Source: Phallusia mammillata
Taxonomy: Eukaryota
Assembly (NCBI GenBank): GCA_965637545.1
Contig: OZ281496.1
Span: 13,516,001-13,580,000, forward strand
Reading direction: 5' to 3'
DNA length: 64,000 nucleotides
The first letter of the stretch is position 1; each line of letters begins with the position of its first letter. The position numbers are program-made. Below, piece by piece: positions 9,401 to 30,400 of the stretch.

Positions 9401-12400
9401 GATATCATTAACCAGAAACACTGTTGCTGAGCGAATAGATGAATTGGCAGATGATTTGAAACAACAACTTAAGTCAGTTTCACCCAAATTTGAACATTTT
9501 TCTATTGCTATTGATGAGAGCGTCGACCTCAGTGGAATAGCACAGCTTGCAGTCTACATCAGAGCCTGTGACAGTGAATTCAACATTATTGAGGAAATTA
9601 TTGAGCTGATCCCCATGCATGACACTACAACAAGTCAGGATATCTTTGAGAAAGTTGAGCAAGTTCTAGATGACTATAATCTTGACTTGAGTAAACTTGC
9701 ATGCTTATCTACTGATGGTGCTGCAAATATGGTTGGCCGACATAATGGTGTTGCTGCCAAGTTAAGAAAAAAGGTAGAAGAGTTGCATCCTGGCTCATCA
9801 ATGGCACATTTTCACTGTATAATTCTTCAGCAAAATTTGTGTTCGAAAATGTTAAAACTGGATCATGTGCTTAGTTTGGTCACAAAGAAAGTGAACTATA
9901 TTAAAGGTCGTGCTCTCAATCACCGCCAGTTCAGCCAATTGTTGGAAGATATGGGTAATCATGTTCCATTCTACACAGAAGTCCGCTGGTTATCATGTCA
10001 AAAAGTTCTAAAAAGATTTTATTTGTTGAGAAAAGAAATAATCATATTTTTGGAAATGAAAGGTCAAAACACTGATGAATTAAAAGATGAAAACTGGCTC
10101 CAAGATCTTGCTTTTGCTGTGGATATTATGGAACAATTGACTGATCTTCTAAAATTGCAAGGTAAAAACAAACTTATTACTCAGTTGTATGATGACATTA
10201 AGTGCTTTATTGCCAAGTTAAGCCTATGGAAGTCACAGCTGTCAAAGGAAAATTTGGTTCATTTTCCTACATGTGAAGAGCTGAAAAAGGCTACCACTAC
10301 TTGTGTACTTGAATTTGCCAAGTATAGCAGTCATCTTCACTTGTTGTCAAATGAATTTCAGAAAAGATTTTATGATTTTTCATCTTTTGAACTTCAATTT
10401 TTATTATTTTCTGCGCCATTCACCTTCGATGTTACTAAAGCTGAAGAAAGTCTGCAGATGGAATTATTAGAAATGCAGTCAGATTCTACACTCCGATCAA
10501 AGTATCTTGAAGTAGGAATACCTGGCTTTTTTCATATCTTCCTGAAAATTTTAAGAACTTTAGAAAGTTTGCCACTAAAATTATGTCCATGTTTGGTTCC
10601 ACTTATGTGTGTGAACAGCTGTTTTCCTTTATGAAAACAGCTAAAACCACCCAAAGAACAAGGCTGACAGATCGGCATTTGTCATCACTAATCAAAGTTG
10701 GAGTTGCACAGACACTTCAGCCCGATATACCAAAAATTGTCTGCAAAAAAAGATGTCAAACCTCGGGACAAAGCACTAATACTAACTGATAAGTAGCAAA
10801 TACCTGCTGCAGTTTTAAAATATAGTCTGTTTAGAATGATGTTCATAATACTGTTGGTCAGAACAAGTAGTGTAATTACTTCGTTGTCTGGTATTGATAA
10901 GTGTGATTAAAACAATTGTTTGCATCAAACACGAAATTGTGTGTCAAGGTATATAGCAAATTATCGATGAACAAATAGTTTGACATTACTGTATATGTGC
11001 CATTAGCTTGTGTGCTGCCCGGATGATTACATAACATGACGCATGCGGCCCTTGGAGGACTGTGAGTTTGACATGCCTGGTATAGCGTACATTGCTTTTC
11101 GCCACGAATTGAAACCCTCGATCCACTTTTTTCCCTGGCCGTCTAAAATATTTTTAACCCCTGGCCTTACGCGGTTATTTGCAAGAGCCCACGAACACAC
11201 GCTGCATGTCATTGCATCTTTTTCAGGATCATATTGGACCCATGTAAATTCTTTAGACAATTTTTCTTGAAACTTTCGGCCACCGGTTGATTCCTTTACG
11301 TAACCGCGGGCGGCGTCAGTGGTCATGGGCTGTGTGAGCAGAGTCATAGAAACAATAGAAGAACTTTCGGCTGTTTCTGCACCAGGCTGACTTGTATCTG
11401 CCCTTTTCTCATCTTCCTCTGATTTTGCGCCGCACCCCCGTACTCTACGCCAGTGATTGCACTTATAGGTAACGAAGAGTGATTGGGGTATCTAGTGTTG
11501 CTGTGCCAAAGCCTCAAAACACGCTTTTTATATTCGTCCTGAATGTCATTAGTATCCTTTTTCCATGTAATGTTATTATACGTTCCCTTTCAAACGCAAA
11601 AAGCTTGTTCAAACTGTCACATGGGGAGAGTATGATTTTTCCAAAATAAGTTTATTTTGAAAAGGTTATTAGCGGATGTGTCATCAAACCCAATAAGAAC
11701 ATGGTTTTTAAACTACAAAGCAATTGCTTTTGCCAAATGATTTATCGCGTTTTCATTTGGCCCGCCAATTTTAATTTAAGGGTTGTTGCAAACTACATGT
11801 GAGCAAATTTGATTGTTTGAACCATTTTTATAATTGTTTTAGCACACACAAGATGCATAGGTAGGCAGAGAGAAGACACACATAAAGAAAGGAAGGAACA
11901 GCTGAGTCCTGTGGATTAGTAAAAACCCACGGCTAGTATTCATTCCTCTTGTCTGTATGCCTTGAACGTTGTTAGCTTTGTCGGAGCCGTTACCTTCACC
12001 GACGAAGGAGCTACCTTCGTTGGAGCTGTATTTTTTTTAGCTTTACTCTTTTACTATCTACGTTGGCGCAAAGTCTGCTTCTGTTGACTTTCCACGTTCA
12101 ATTGATTGCACAGGATTATGCTTGCGGACAGCAACTTCTCGACCTGATATTTGAGGATACTCGTGTATTGATAAAGCCCCAAATCGGAAAGATGGAAGTT
12201 CCCATTGCAGCAATCATCGAGGTCTTGCCAACTACTGTTCGAGAATTACGTTGGAACCGGCAACGCATTCCATATGGTCTCCCGCCTGCTGGAGGATAGC
12301 TGAAACAGCAATCTACACAGAAAAAAATCTTGTACAAATTCATAAAAAATCATCAATGCAGTGTCAACAAAACACCTTGGCCTGTGGATAGGATTTCTTG

Positions 12401-27400: not shown

Positions 27401-30400
27401 CGTGGATCAGTGTTGAAGCGAAAGCAAAGTGGTCAAAGAAAACATCATCGGAGAAAGAAATATTTAAAACAACAACCAGGTGTCAATTTGCATTTTTGTT
27501 CTCGTTTGCTACAACTGCCGACATTTTTTAAAACTGGGGGTGGGCCACATTTACACATTACTTATACGAAACCCGACAGCAGGCGGCACACCACTGCCAG
27601 TTGCAAAGGGTGTAACGAGTCACCACGACGCCAATACAATTAGCCACTTTTTGTAAAACTTTTTATTTGATGCGGTAAAAGTGTGTGGGACAGCAAGAAA
27701 ACCAAAATTAGTAGTAATGGATGGCTCAATGGCAATGTTACAGAGTTGTAAGAGGTGTACCTGGCGATTCCGACCTGCAAAAAACATTTGTTACCAATTG
27801 CTATAGCCACCCTATGAAAGCAGCAAAAATTTTACAAAACTTTAGTTACAACCTATTTTTTTTGGATAAACGTCATGTTTTCGTGCTCGACCGTTAAAGA
27901 GTTAGACGAAGCATTAGAAAGTTTTTTTTTATTTTAACCAACAGTGAAGCTTCTTCCTCATTGGTCCAATTACATTTCAAAAGGCTTAAGTCGTTCGGTT
28001 CGACAATGACGGTGAAACAGTTACAGAGGAAACCGACTATTTTTTTTACTGCAAAAGCATTGGACAAATTACAGGAACGCCATTCGCCATTTTACATCAG
28101 ATACTGACGTAAATTAGATACCGTTCTAGAAACGATATCTGATTCTATGCCTTTGACACCGAAACATAAAAATGTGTACAAAAATTCTGAAATTTCTAAC
28201 AAGGTTTTGGAAATAACTTTAAGCAGAATGTGTTCAACTTCAAAATTAATGCTTGGAGATATGTCCATACATATGCACAAAGGCACAACGTCAAATGACC
28301 AATCGCAAATGTACAAACAACATAGTGATCACTGCAATAACCTTAAACAACTGGGCCATCAAACTATTTTGCAAAACAACCGGACGCAGGGGATTATTGA
28401 ACAACATTTTGGAGATTTAAAAACAAATGTGATAGACGGGAAACGAATAGCTAGAATTGATGATTTTGTTGTAAAGTATTATCAAGCCATACTGATTTTG
28501 CAAAAACTTTTTTCTGATTCTTACATTTACCTCATGTCCAAATAGAAATCATCAAATTTGTCGAGCAAGAAACTATTGACGCCTGTGGTGGAATCCAAGT
28601 TTTTTTTTCAAAAATAAACGCAAAGCCACAAGTTATTATTCTTCAGATTCTGCTTTAAAGCAGTTACAATACCGCTATGAACCGACGCTATGAACCGATG
28701 TACAATACCGATGTGCTTTTTGCCCTTTTTTTGACCCGGAAATAATGATTTCAATTTGCAAACCTGTTGTAGATTTTATTTGGCACCAAATTCTCCACAA
28801 CACCCACTCCATATTTGATACAGCCATAATCACCAAACGGCGCCATTCATTGTCATCTTTGGGCAAAACGTATTCCGCTTACTGAAAATTTTGCGCGTTC
28901 TCACAACGATGCGATGCTTGTGTGGTTAACAGATAAAGTTGTAGATTGCTATTGTTACTAGAACTGTCGCTATATGTAATTCTGTTTTACCAGGTAAATT
29001 TGCATGTGTGTCAAGTGTTTTAGCTGCTGAAATTTTGAATGGAAAAACATTGAGAAACTTGCAACGGACTTTGGGTTGAATAATAAACAATGACGGACAG
29101 ATATGTGAAAATGTTGTTTTACCGGTTTTGTACGAAAATCATTTTGTTGTGCTGTGGTTCAGTCAGCTGACTAATACACTGTTTTTTTACGATTCAAACG
29201 TTCGTGCTAACGATAAATTGAAACGTTTAATTAGACAACACATGATTCCAGCGTTTAAATCCCTTACCAGCCAAGACGTTTTATTGAAAGGTGATTGCAA
29301 AGTTTTCCAGCAAGATCAGTCTAGTTGCGGGTTGTGCGTCTGTTACACAGTTGATCGCCTTGCATCAGTCATTCTTAATATGGGCCATGCGAACTTTGAC
29401 GTTACAAATTATCGAATTTGGGTGGTGTACGCATTAGTTCAAGACTCGTTAAGTTGTAGTTTAAAAATTAGGACCTCTACGAAACAAAAAGTTATTGTTT
29501 CAGTTGGTTTGCCGAACAAGTTTAATAACTGCTGGATGAACTCTGTACTGCAGAGTATGCGAAGCTGTTTTGTTGATTTGCCCAATGATAATAATCTCGA
29601 AGAGAGAGTCGCGAACGTAATTTGTGACCTCCGACTCGGCAAAGTAGAAGAGGCTGCTTACTTTGGATTGGTTCGCGATATGTGTTGTCATCTTGGTTGG
29701 GTTCTGTAACTTTTTGATTTCCAATCTGTTTTTAAAACTTGTAATTTGGATTGTACGTTTCAATTTCACACAACGAAAACTTGCAAGTCATGTGGCAGAG
29801 AATCTAAATTTGTTAATGACCAGTCAGTGTTAGCTCTACCAGTTTTTGAAACAATTCCAGACAACAGCAACATAAGCGCATATTGTAAAAGGAATTTAGT
29901 GGAATAAGTCTCGGCTACTGTTGTTGTTGTAACGTAGAAAATGAAATCGTCTTTGAATCGCGACTTGATGATCTATCCGACATTTTGTGTATTGTATTGC
30001 ACAGAAACGCGACAGGTCAAAAAATAAACAGACCCGTAAAGACGACGAAAACTTTGTCATTTTGTTCCGCATCCGAAACGCATGTTTATCAGTTGTTGTC
30101 GGTTGTAATTCACGTCGGATCGAAAGTTGATTCAGGTCATTACATCATTTATGAATTTAATGGCGATAACGTGACTGAACTGAACGATTTGTCGGTCATG
30201 GATATGTCTTTGGACTGTGTTGGGGACAAAATTTCTACTGGAGTTTGCATTTTGTATTATTGAAGACGTGCAATAAATTCTGATGGTCACTCCAGTGAAA
30301 GTGACGATAGTCAACCTACGATTAAGGTAGTGCCTAGGAAGCGTCGTCGCCTCCACGCATCAACCGTTGAAACAACGGAACGAATAGTTTACAGGAATAT

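What the first reader, a model, noticed from the sequence alone, without database searches (positions are those of the whole stretch)
11880..27416. Recurrent SGNH-hydrolase + basic/TM-peptide cassette travelling among transposons
Seen: two diverged SGNH relics (12080-12750 minus; 26490-26880 plus) share SLP(G/R)G, ALG(T/S)ND, HLSD(L/V)GL..Y and a splice donor at the same position (after YPQAK / YPQAQ). Each is followed by a K/P/T/A-rich low-complexity stretch and a hydrophobic tail. Copy 2 lies directly upstream of the NOF-Ulp1-USP gene. Inference: an intron-bearing esterase cassette is a standing component of a large cargo-carrying DNA transposon, unlike the intronless SGNH of CR1/L2 ORF1.
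Basis: partly seen in the sequence, partly recalled or inferred. Interest (0 to 1): 0.7.

Follow-up and report, generated by a model that had tools for sequence, protein, structure and literature searches.

The report
Two decayed membrane-anchored SGNH esterase pseudogenes
The two esterase-like relics are real and related: they are broken copies of a small, uncharacterised, intron-containing esterase gene family known from a sea squirt, but nothing here shows that they are cargo of a DNA transposon.

Summary
Copy 1 (12741-~11828, minus) and copy 2 (26492-27416, plus) are homologous at protein level only. No third copy exists in the window.

An exhaustive search with one exon found 11 related clusters among 1.84 billion representatives. 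The only named relatives are three 210-221 aa "uncharacterized" Styela clava proteins.

The family has a conserved basic N-terminus, SGNH blocks I, II, III and V, and a phase-0 intron after YPxAK. Copy 1 keeps that intron as a 63-nt GT..AG insert. Eight of 11 database relatives break at the same point.

The basic stretch and hydrophobic tail are the C-terminus of the same protein, not a separate peptide.

Both copies are pseudogenes. Copy 1 has at least five frameshifts and in-frame stops. Copy 2 lacks the N-terminus with the catalytic serine.

The family is not close to the one LINE ORF1 esterase I could compare, zebrafish ZfL2-1.

The transposon-cargo idea is unsupported. The copies share no flanks, have different neighbours and no terminal repeats, and the "NOF" part has no Pfam match.

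The parts
12589..12741 (-). Copy 1, 5' part. ATG relic at 12741-12739 with one extra base at 12738. Then the conserved N-terminal motif (RGKRTRPVDYPFGVSEKQT) and block I (LPFVLLVTDSNG), read across three frames.
   Evidence: tblastn of P0001, P0007, P0011, P0012 and P0014 onto 12737-12591 and 12655-12620. Profile hit E 1e-6. Sequence read.
12376..12588 (-). Copy 1, middle exon: block II (SLPGG), block III (ALGTND), ending at YPQAK. It is one open frame.
   Evidence: Pfam PF13472 E 1.6e-4. 51-52% identity to P0001 and P0002. Profile E 2.3e-27.
12313..12375 (-). Copy 1, phase-0 spliceosomal intron: 63 nt, GT..AG, T-rich 3' end, three in-frame stops.
   Evidence: The P0012 and P0007 alignments run through in one frame with a 21-codon insert exactly here. 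8 of 11 database relatives diverge or end right after the homologous codon plus V.
12054..12312 (-). Copy 1, last SGNH exon: IAVSAILQQAG..., an in-frame TAG, a frameshift, then block V (NGNFHLSDLGLYQY).
   Evidence: tblastn of P0007, P0012, P0011 and P0014. tblastx to copy 2.
11828..12053 (-). Copy 1 tail. Two adjacent stops, then a K/T/P/A-rich stretch (KSKAKKNTAPTKVAPSSVKVTAPTK...) in the SGNH frame. After a further frameshift comes a hydrophobic segment (VPSFLYVCLLSAYLCILCV) and a stop.
   Evidence: Three-frame translation and hydropathy, 2.23 over 19 aa. Weak collinear tblastx match to the copy 2 tail. Weak match to P0007 350-376.
26492..26679 (+). Copy 2, 5'-truncated. Block II relic (VDAVSLPRG), a frameshift, then block III (FGNVDFVVLALGSND) ending at YPQAQ. 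No N-terminal motif or block I was found upstream.
   Evidence: Pfam PF13472 E 3.9e-4. Profile E 7.3e-12.
26680..26741 (+). Copy 2, GT..AG interval after YPQAQ. It is probably an intron remnant, but about 100 nt of the following exon are missing and the frames do not join.
   Evidence: Sequence. Relatives have about 33 residues here where copy 2 has 62 nt of non-matching DNA. This is inference.
26741..26929 (+). Copy 2, block V exon (LWHDRLHLSDVGLRHYMASLE...FVSTRGLMD).
   Evidence: tblastn of P0007 168-226 at 42% over 59 aa, also P0011 and P0014.
26925..27416 (+). Copy 2 tail ORF of 163 codons. It holds a K-rich stretch, a 54-bp tandem repeat (27148-27262), a C-terminal hydrophobic segment (about 27288-27392) and a stop at 27414-27416.
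   Evidence: The whole-window chance expectation for any ORF this long is 0.14, but stop-poor overlapping frames weaken that.

Best explanation
These are two independently decayed pseudogenes of a small, lineage-restricted, intron-containing gene family. The family encodes an SGNH (GDSL-type) serine esterase.

The intact protein, reconstructed from relatives, has four parts: a conserved basic N-terminus (M-RG-x-RTRP-x-x-Y..G.SGKQT.YL), an SGNH domain about 200 aa long, a variable basic low-complexity linker, and in some members a C-terminal hydrophobic segment. The linker and tail are therefore the C-terminus of the esterase, not a separate peptide.

Inferred mechanism of the intact protein: it has no N-terminal signal peptide and a single C-terminal anchor, so it would be inserted as a tail-anchored protein with the esterase facing the cytosol. 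There it would deacylate a membrane-proximal lipid or acylated substrate through the Ser/His centre (Asp where present) and the Gly/Asn oxyanion hole.

The copies spread at DNA level, because the intron is retained. They were not retroposed. The two copies here are about 40% identical in protein sequence and no longer alignable as DNA, so they diverged long ago. Both are dead, and they now lie among younger hAT, Harbinger and Gypsy insertions.

Shown: homology of the copies, family membership, the copy 1 intron, the disabling lesions, and the absence of shared flanks. Inferred: membrane topology, substrate class, and that the family is a host gene family rather than transposon cargo.
For: - Homology of the two copies, and only two loci in the window.
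- Family: 11 related clusters among 1,835,955,588 representatives. The twelfth hit, P0004, is a 1,260-aa repeat protein matched on a 28-residue stretch, and I set it aside.
- The named relatives are three Styela clava 'uncharacterized protein' models of 210-221 aa on three different chromosome-scale contigs. One is an 'isoform X2', and all carry only PF13472.
- P0007 (714 aa) is 63% identical to one of them over 203 aa. It carries a long K/R/S/E-rich tail ending in a hydrophobic segment.
- SGNH fold for the family: the AF2 model of P0011 has pLDDT 76.4 and pTM 0.78. 124 PDB matches reach E 1e-3 or better, and nearly all those listed are SGNH enzymes. PF13472 scores 41.6 bits for P0011, above the 32.9 cut-off.
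- 13 of 14 fetched proteins hit copy 1 and 12 of 14 hit copy 2. None hits anywhere else in the window at E 0.01 or better.
- Intron.
- Lesions.
- No shared flanks.
- The low number of relatives argues against a high-copy mobile element in sequenced genomes.
Against: - Two dead, diverged copies 14 kb apart in DNA that is mostly transposons also fits a gene carried by a mobile element.
- SGNH genes have been captured repeatedly by mobile elements: passages of PMC5408684, PMC9210276 and PMC4021074.
- Most database relatives are unnamed fragments from short contigs, so their genomic setting is unknown.
- The three Styela models end without a linker or anchor, so the tail is not shown to be universal. 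The copy 1 hydrophobic segment needs an extra frameshift.
- Tail similarity between the copies and P0007 is not significant on its own (E 0.63-1.8).
- The copy 2 tail ORF is oddly intact next to a broken esterase part.
- The source organism of the window is unknown.
Confidence: 0.55

Rival explanations
1. One reading: the esterase-linker-anchor gene is an accessory (cargo) gene of a large DNA transposon, for example one that also carries the Ulp1-like/USP gene. On this view the two relics are remains of two old insertions.
For: - Copy 2 lies about 1.7 kb upstream of, and on the same strand as, a Ulp1-like/USP ORF set (29080-30263; UCH Pfam E 3.8e-8).
- The introns fit DNA-level spread.
- There are two dead copies in transposon-rich DNA.
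- There is a precedent for an intron-bearing SGNH gene moved by a DNA transposon: texim with Helitron in fish (PMC4021074, abstract, passages and sections 5-6 read).
- UCH and Peptidase_C48 domains are reported as captured domains in Helitron-like elements (PMC11417382, one passage read).
Against: - Copy 1 has no Ulp1/USP neighbour. Its downstream neighbour is a hAT-type relic.
- There is no similarity between the flanks of the two copies over 5-6 kb.
- No terminal inverted repeats were found.
- No transposase, MULE or Rep-helicase domain was found near copy 2. I scanned 65 + strand ORFs of 30 aa or more in 24900-26585, 27385-29076 and 30179-33578, and ORFs of 75 aa or more across most of the window.
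- The Ulp1/USP ORF had no relatives in two searches. Both are weak negatives.
- Only 11 relative clusters exist in 1.84 billion representatives.
Confidence: 0.2
2. The relics are fragments of a retroelement that carries an SGNH ORF: CR1/L2-type LINE ORF1, the Ngaro post-recombinase ORF, or a Penelope or LTR-element ORF3.
For: - SGNH ORFs are documented in all these element types (passages of PMC5408684 and PMC9210276; PMC3905857 seen only in the search listing).
- Copy 2 is 5'-truncated, as LINE copies often are.
- A GIY-YIG ORF (49436-50650), a zf-RVT relic (38316-38708) and a Gypsy element are in the window.
Against: - Copy 1 keeps an intron inside the coding sequence.
- No reverse transcriptase, endonuclease or tyrosine recombinase lies next to either copy on its strand.
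- The gene has its own conserved start.
- The ZfL2-1 ORF1 esterase is only a remote match.
- The named relatives are stand-alone genes.
Confidence: 0.05
3. Copy 2 is not simply dead. Its intact tail ORF, perhaps joined to upstream exons (26329-26488), is expressed as a chimeric membrane protein that has lost esterase function.
For: - The tail is a 163-codon open frame, against a window-wide chance expectation of 0.14.
- GT..AG intervals at 26489-26547 and 26919-26967 keep phase (read; inference).
Against: - There are no RNA data.
- Two other long ORFs overlap the tail in other frames (27218-27643 +, 27059-27361 -), which points to stop-poor composition.
- The 3' end of the first interval is not pyrimidine-rich.
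- No canonical splice joins YPQAQ to the HLSD frame.
Confidence: 0.1

Closest known systems
Styela clava uncharacterized proteins LOC144423018, LOC144431919 (isoform X2) and LOC120335056, with unnamed relatives P0001-P0003, P0005-P0010 and P0012
   Same: They share the N-terminal motif, the spacing and wording of SGNH blocks I, II, III and V, and the break point after YPxAK. Identity to the copy 1 middle exon is 33-52%.
   Different: The window copies are pseudogenes. The Styela models stop right after the SGNH domain, whereas copy 1, copy 2, P0007 and P0012 carry a long low-complexity tail, and copy 2 and P0007 end in a hydrophobic segment. Nothing in the papers I searched describes the family.
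texim genes of fish: SGNH hydrolase genes mobilised by Helitrons (PMC4021074)
   Same: They are intron-bearing SGNH genes with a patchy distribution in deuterostomes, including a urochordate. They are multicopy, with no reverse transcriptase attached.
   Different: teximYa and teximYb have 15 exons (section 5 of the paper). No Helitron Rep-helicase is in this window. A sequence relationship could not be tested because no texim sequence was available.
Esterase domain of CR1/L2-type LINE ORF1 proteins (ZfL2-1, PDB 4c1b)
   Same: It has the SGNH fold and is thought to act at membranes. That role comes from the search listing of PMC3905857 and a passage of PMC5408684.
   Different: It is intronless and lies upstream of an endonuclease/RT ORF2. 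Here there is an intron, no ORF2, and only remote similarity (E 0.012; Foldseek rank 25, TMq 0.34).
Hydro-SGNH ORF of Ngaro retrotransposons (PMC9210276, passages)
   Same: It is a stand-alone SGNH ORF carried by a mobile element.
   Different: It lies after the tyrosine recombinase inside split direct repeats. No recombinase, RT or such repeats lie near either copy.
PAF acetylhydrolase Ib catalytic subunits (PDB 1es9, 1wab)
   Same: They are the best structural match of the family model (E 6.8e-6, TM 0.56). They are cytosolic SGNH esterases acting on a lipid.
   Different: Identity is only 16-20%. They have neither the N-terminal motif nor the tail. CE3 esterases, sialate O-acetylesterases and TesA match equally well.

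Membership tests
SGNH/GDSL hydrolase superfamily | Block I with the nucleophile Ser (GDS-like) | tested here: met
   Copy 1 has LLVTDSNG, aligned to LLLTDSNG or LLLLSDSN of relatives. Copy 2 lacks this part altogether.
SGNH/GDSL hydrolase superfamily | Block II Gly and block III GxND | tested here: met
   Copy 1 has SLPGG and ALGTND. Copy 2 has SLPRG and ALGSND.
SGNH/GDSL hydrolase superfamily | Block V DxxH | tested here: inconclusive
   Copy 2 has DRLH, with D and H both present. Copy 1 has GNFH, so H is present but D is replaced. P0007 (GRLH) shows the same replacement.
SGNH/GDSL hydrolase superfamily | Pfam PF13472 at or above the gathering score; SGNH fold | tested here: inconclusive
   The window exons score 22.7 and 21.4 bits, below the 32.9 cut-off. 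Relative P0011 scores 41.6 bits, and its model matches SGNH structures. The fold was not modelled for the broken window copies.
Styela clava LOC144423018-like SGNH family | N-terminal M-RG-x-RTRP..Y..G.SGKQT motif plus family-specific block wording | tested here: met
   Copy 1 has RGKRTRPVDYPFGVSEKQT at 64% identity over 22 aa to P0014, with profile E 2.3e-27 and 1e-6. Copy 2 matches only from block II onward (E 7.3e-12).
Styela clava LOC144423018-like SGNH family | Phase-0 intron after YPxAK | tested here: met
   Copy 1 has a 63-nt GT..AG insert. 8 of 11 relatives break there. In copy 2 only the donor is seen. The gene structure of the Styela genes was not seen.
LINE CR1/L2 ORF1 esterase | Esterase in ORF1, directly upstream of an endonuclease/RT ORF2; no intron | tested here: not met
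   No RT or endonuclease lies downstream of either copy. Copy 1 has an intron.
Ngaro Hydro-SGNH ORF | Position after RT/RNase H and tyrosine recombinase, within split direct repeats | tested here: not met
   No such domains are next to the copies. No matching direct repeats were found.
texim/Helitron association | Helitron Rep-helicase within a few kb; sequence grouping with Texim proteins | tested here: inconclusive
   No Rep-helicase Pfam hit occurs in the window ORFs scanned. Sequence grouping is not testable because no texim sequences were available.
Cargo gene of a MULE-NOF or other large DNA transposon | Transposase domain, terminal inverted repeats and shared element body around the copies | tested here: not met
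   No transposase hit lies between 27385 and 29076 or in 30179-33578. No bracketing inverted repeats were found. The two copies share no flanks. Genome-wide copies could not be examined.

The most novel reading that the evidence does not exclude
The esterase-linker-anchor gene is the membrane-targeting accessory gene of an undescribed, low-copy, large DNA transposon of a marine invertebrate, one that also carries a Ulp1-like/USP deubiquitinase gene. That would be a DNA-transposon counterpart of the LINE ORF1 esterase, acquired independently and still carrying its intron.
Probability: 0.1. Interest if true: 0.65.

Novelty: new member of a known kind. Interest (0 to 1): 0.3.

Why it matters
SGNH esterases have been picked up again and again by mobile elements: LINE ORF1, Ngaro, bdelloid LTR and Penelope-like elements, and Helitron-texim. 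Their role there is still unknown. An intron-bearing, membrane-anchored SGNH gene shown to ride a DNA transposon would be a new, independent case bearing on that question.

As it stands, the window shows two dead members of a small uncharacterised esterase family. What it adds is modest. It defines the family's architecture (N-terminal motif, intron position, linker and anchor), and it identifies the intact Styela clava genes as the ones to study.

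Tried and rejected
- DNA-level repeat search. Self-blastn gave 11 pairs, none linking the copies. A sensitive blastn of 5-6 kb flanks gave only a 14-nt match. So the copies are not a recent duplication or a shared element body.
- Intron after TDSNG in copy 1. I first read GTGAGT as a donor. Alignment to P0001 shows it encodes VVS, and the frames change by small indels. Rejected.
- Terminal repeats. Nothing brackets either copy.
- 'NOF'. No Pfam match for any + strand ORF of 30 aa or more in 27385-29076.
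- The Ulp1-like/USP ORF. A search for longer relatives found none among 375 candidates, and the Atlas gave no usable hit. The PDB sequence search gave only SENP8 at E 0.81, although the catalytic H, D, Q and C align.
- The Atlas search with P0011 gave only generic eukaryotic SGNH clusters, which is a lead and not a test.
- Tail homology to P0007 is not significant.
- Phylogeny against LINE ORF1, texim and Ngaro esterases was not possible because no such sequences were available.
- Neighbour tabulation was not possible. I did not use the scan of bacterial and archaeal genomes.
Exons were searched one by one.

Full report
**Setting.** The window is AT-rich eukaryotic DNA (GC about 0.34-0.42) with no N. 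It is dominated by mobile-element remains:
- a Gypsy-type LTR element at 17657-22226, with 194-bp LTRs 98.5% identical;
- two long hAT transposase ORFs;
- several DUF4371/hAT-type pieces;
- Harbinger-type DDE pieces;
- a GIY-YIG ORF and a zf-RVT relic.

I do not take it for human. Its organism could not be named.

**The observation.** Both relics exist and are homologous.
- Region-to-region tblastx gives collinear same-strand matches over the GxND block (56% over 25 aa) and the HLSD block (44% over 27 aa).
- Against the whole window, the copy 1 peptides find copy 2 at E 1.6e-6 and 4e-4.
- Pfam Lipase_GDSL_2 matches both middle exons below its cut-off.
- There is no DNA-level similarity between the copies, and nothing is shared outside the gene body.

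**What family.** I searched exon by exon.

The copy 1 middle exon (74 aa) was scored against 1,835,955,588 representatives and returned 12 proteins at E 1e-3 or better. Eleven are true relatives, at 37-52% identity. The twelfth (P0004) is a long repeat protein matched on a short motif, and I set it aside.

Word-indexed searches named only three relatives, all Styela clava 'uncharacterized protein' models of 210-221 aa with PF13472 as their only domain. That was 3 hits among 213 candidates and 8 among 6,458.

P0007 (714 aa) is 63% identical to one Styela protein over 203 aa, so the family is at least ascidian.

The alignments define these features:
- an N-terminal M-RG-x-RTRP-x-x-Y..G.SGKQT.YL motif;
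- block I, LLL(T/S)DSN;
- block II, (L/I)PGG;
- block III, ALGTND;
- block V, D-x-LHLSD-GL..Y.

An AF2 model of the Styela protein P0011 (pLDDT 76.4, pTM 0.78) matches SGNH enzymes. The best match is PAF-AH Ib (E 6.8e-6, TM 0.56). The ZfL2-1 LINE ORF1 esterase is rank 25 with TMq 0.34. The profile against PDB sequences gives only weak hits: CE2 at 3.5e-3, 4c1b at 0.012 and a PAF-AH-like protein at 0.043.

A family profile run over all 2,766 six-frame ORFs of the window hits only the two loci. Of 14 fetched proteins, 13 hit copy 1 and 12 hit copy 2, and none hits elsewhere.

**Anatomy of copy 1 (minus strand).**
- An ATG relic at 12741-12739 is followed by one extra base.
- The N-terminal motif, block I and the following segment lie in three different frames. 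The GTGAGT after TDSNG encodes VVS and is not a donor.
- The middle exon, 12588-12376, is open.
- After YPQAK comes a 63-nt GT..AG insert (12375-12313) with three in-frame stops. Relatives P0007 and P0012 run straight across this point, so the alignment continues in the same frame with a 21-codon gap.
- The last exon has a TAG and a frameshift before NGNFHLSDLGLYQY.
- The same frame then runs, through two adjacent stops, into KSKAKKNTAPTKVAPSSVKVTAPTK.
- A hydrophobic segment follows in another frame.

So copy 1 is a full-length but heavily disabled copy.

**Anatomy of copy 2 (plus strand).**
- Homology starts at 26492 (VDAVSLPRG). The N-terminal roughly 60 codons, including the catalytic Ser, are absent.
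- There is a frameshift before FGNVDFVVLALGSND.
- GT follows YPQAQ.
- The next 62 nt stand where relatives have about 33 residues, and the frames do not join.
- Block V is intact (DRLHLSDVGL), and homology to P0007 runs to 26929.
- The tail ORF (26925-27416) is open. It holds a 54-bp tandem repeat and ends in a roughly 35-residue hydrophobic segment.

**The intron.** Eight of the 11 relatives (P0001, P0002, P0003, P0005, P0006, P0008, P0009, P0010) end or lose similarity right after YPxA(K/Q/N/E) plus V. That is what unspliced ORF calls reading into a GT donor would give. P0007, P0011 and P0012 continue with I/V-x-L..ILPQ.

Four relatives (P0003, P0008, P0009, P0010) also start with unrelated residues ending in Q just before (I/V)(I/V)xPS. 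This suggests a second intron that copy 1, P0001 and P0002 lack. That is inference.

**The 'cassette'.** The basic stretch and the hydrophobic tail continue the esterase reading frame in copy 1. They follow it in copy 2, and they have counterparts in P0012 (a T/S/K/P-rich repeated tail) and P0007 (a long basic tail with a hydrophobic end). They are the C-terminus of the protein.

The tails do not align significantly with each other, and the Styela models lack them. The architecture is therefore supported but not universal.

**Transposon cargo?** Nothing in the window supports it.
- The flanks are unrelated.
- On its own strand, copy 1 is followed by a hAT-type zinc-finger/DUF4371 relic and copy 2 by a Ulp1-like/USP gene.
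- No inverted repeats bracket either copy.
- No Rep-helicase, MULE or other transposase domain lies beside copy 2.
- The USP part of the neighbour is real (UCH E 3.8e-8). The Ulp1 part is only suggestive (SENP8 E 0.81 with catalytic residues aligned). The 'NOF' part has no support.
- The small number of relatives in a very large protein set argues against a high-copy element.

The idea is not excluded, because SGNH capture by mobile elements is well documented:
- LINE ORF1 (PMC3905857, search listing only);
- Ngaro (PMC9210276, passages);
- bdelloid LTR and Penelope-like elements (PMC5408684, passages);
- Helitron-texim (PMC4021074, passages and sections 5-6).

I found no paper on this particular family in searches.

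**Verdict.** The reading that the esterase is intron-bearing and unlike LINE ORF1 is right. The reading that it is a standing component of a cargo-carrying DNA transposon is unsupported here and could not be tested genome-wide.

**Open point.** The copy 2 tail ORF is unexpectedly intact (chance expectation 0.14 per window). However, two other long ORFs overlap it, so stop-poor composition may explain it.

Noticed in passing
window 29080-30263 (+): This is a Ulp1-like cysteine protease motif set (H, D, Q, C aligned to SENP8, E only 0.81) fused or adjacent to a USP/UCH deubiquitinase (Cys box in 29080-29709, His box region in 29889-30263, Pfam E 3.8e-8). No relatives were found in one word-indexed search for longer proteins or in the Atlas.
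   Followed up: partly
window 26329-26488 (+): The ORF ending ...FDRLEIKLEERQFRNAS is followed by GTAAGT directly upstream of copy 2. A 59-nt GT..AG interval would join it in phase to the block III exon. It may be a chimeric exon or the edge of another element. It has no Pfam match.
   Followed up: partly
window 17657-22226 (-): A Gypsy-type LTR retrotransposon with 194-bp LTRs 98.5% identical. Its gag, protease, RT, RNase H and integrase regions are read in four ORFs, and it is younger than the esterase relics it separates.
   Followed up: partly
window 13265-16073 and 22898-24919 (+): Two hAT transposase ORFs are still open (722 and 673 aa). The first is flanked by roughly 106-bp segments in direct orientation (13265-13370 and 15969-16073, 80%) that hold TAATTC and TCTAAT microrepeats.
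   Followed up: no
window 8244-11491 and 62482-63999: These are DUF4371/hAT-type transposase pieces on both strands. A + strand copy (8858-10786, with a Spin-doc-type zinc finger and hAT dimerisation region) appears to be inserted within a - strand copy (8244-8681 and 11027-11491).
   Followed up: no
window 4196-5181 and 16361-17316: A roughly 1-kb repeat at 89.7% identity is associated with Harbinger-type DDE_Tnp_4 ORF pieces (2596-3024 on the - strand, 16147-16416 on the + strand).
   Followed up: no
window 49436-50650 (-): A 404-aa ORF has a weak GIY-YIG match (E 2.2e-3), so it may be the endonuclease end of a Penelope-like element.
   Followed up: no
window 55582-56595 (+) and 60635-61111 (+): These look like host-gene exons: galactose-3-O-sulfotransferase (two ORFs, E 7e-9 and 9e-8) and an NHL-repeat ORF (E 2.9e-10).
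   Followed up: no
window 30762-31256: A 205-bp tandem repeat of 2.5 copies at 88% lies just downstream of the USP ORFs.
   Followed up: no
window 17378-17443 and 25268-25390: GTACG/GGTACGGT microrepeats occur on both sides of the nested Gypsy and hAT block. They may be two halves of one older interrupted repeat.
   Followed up: no
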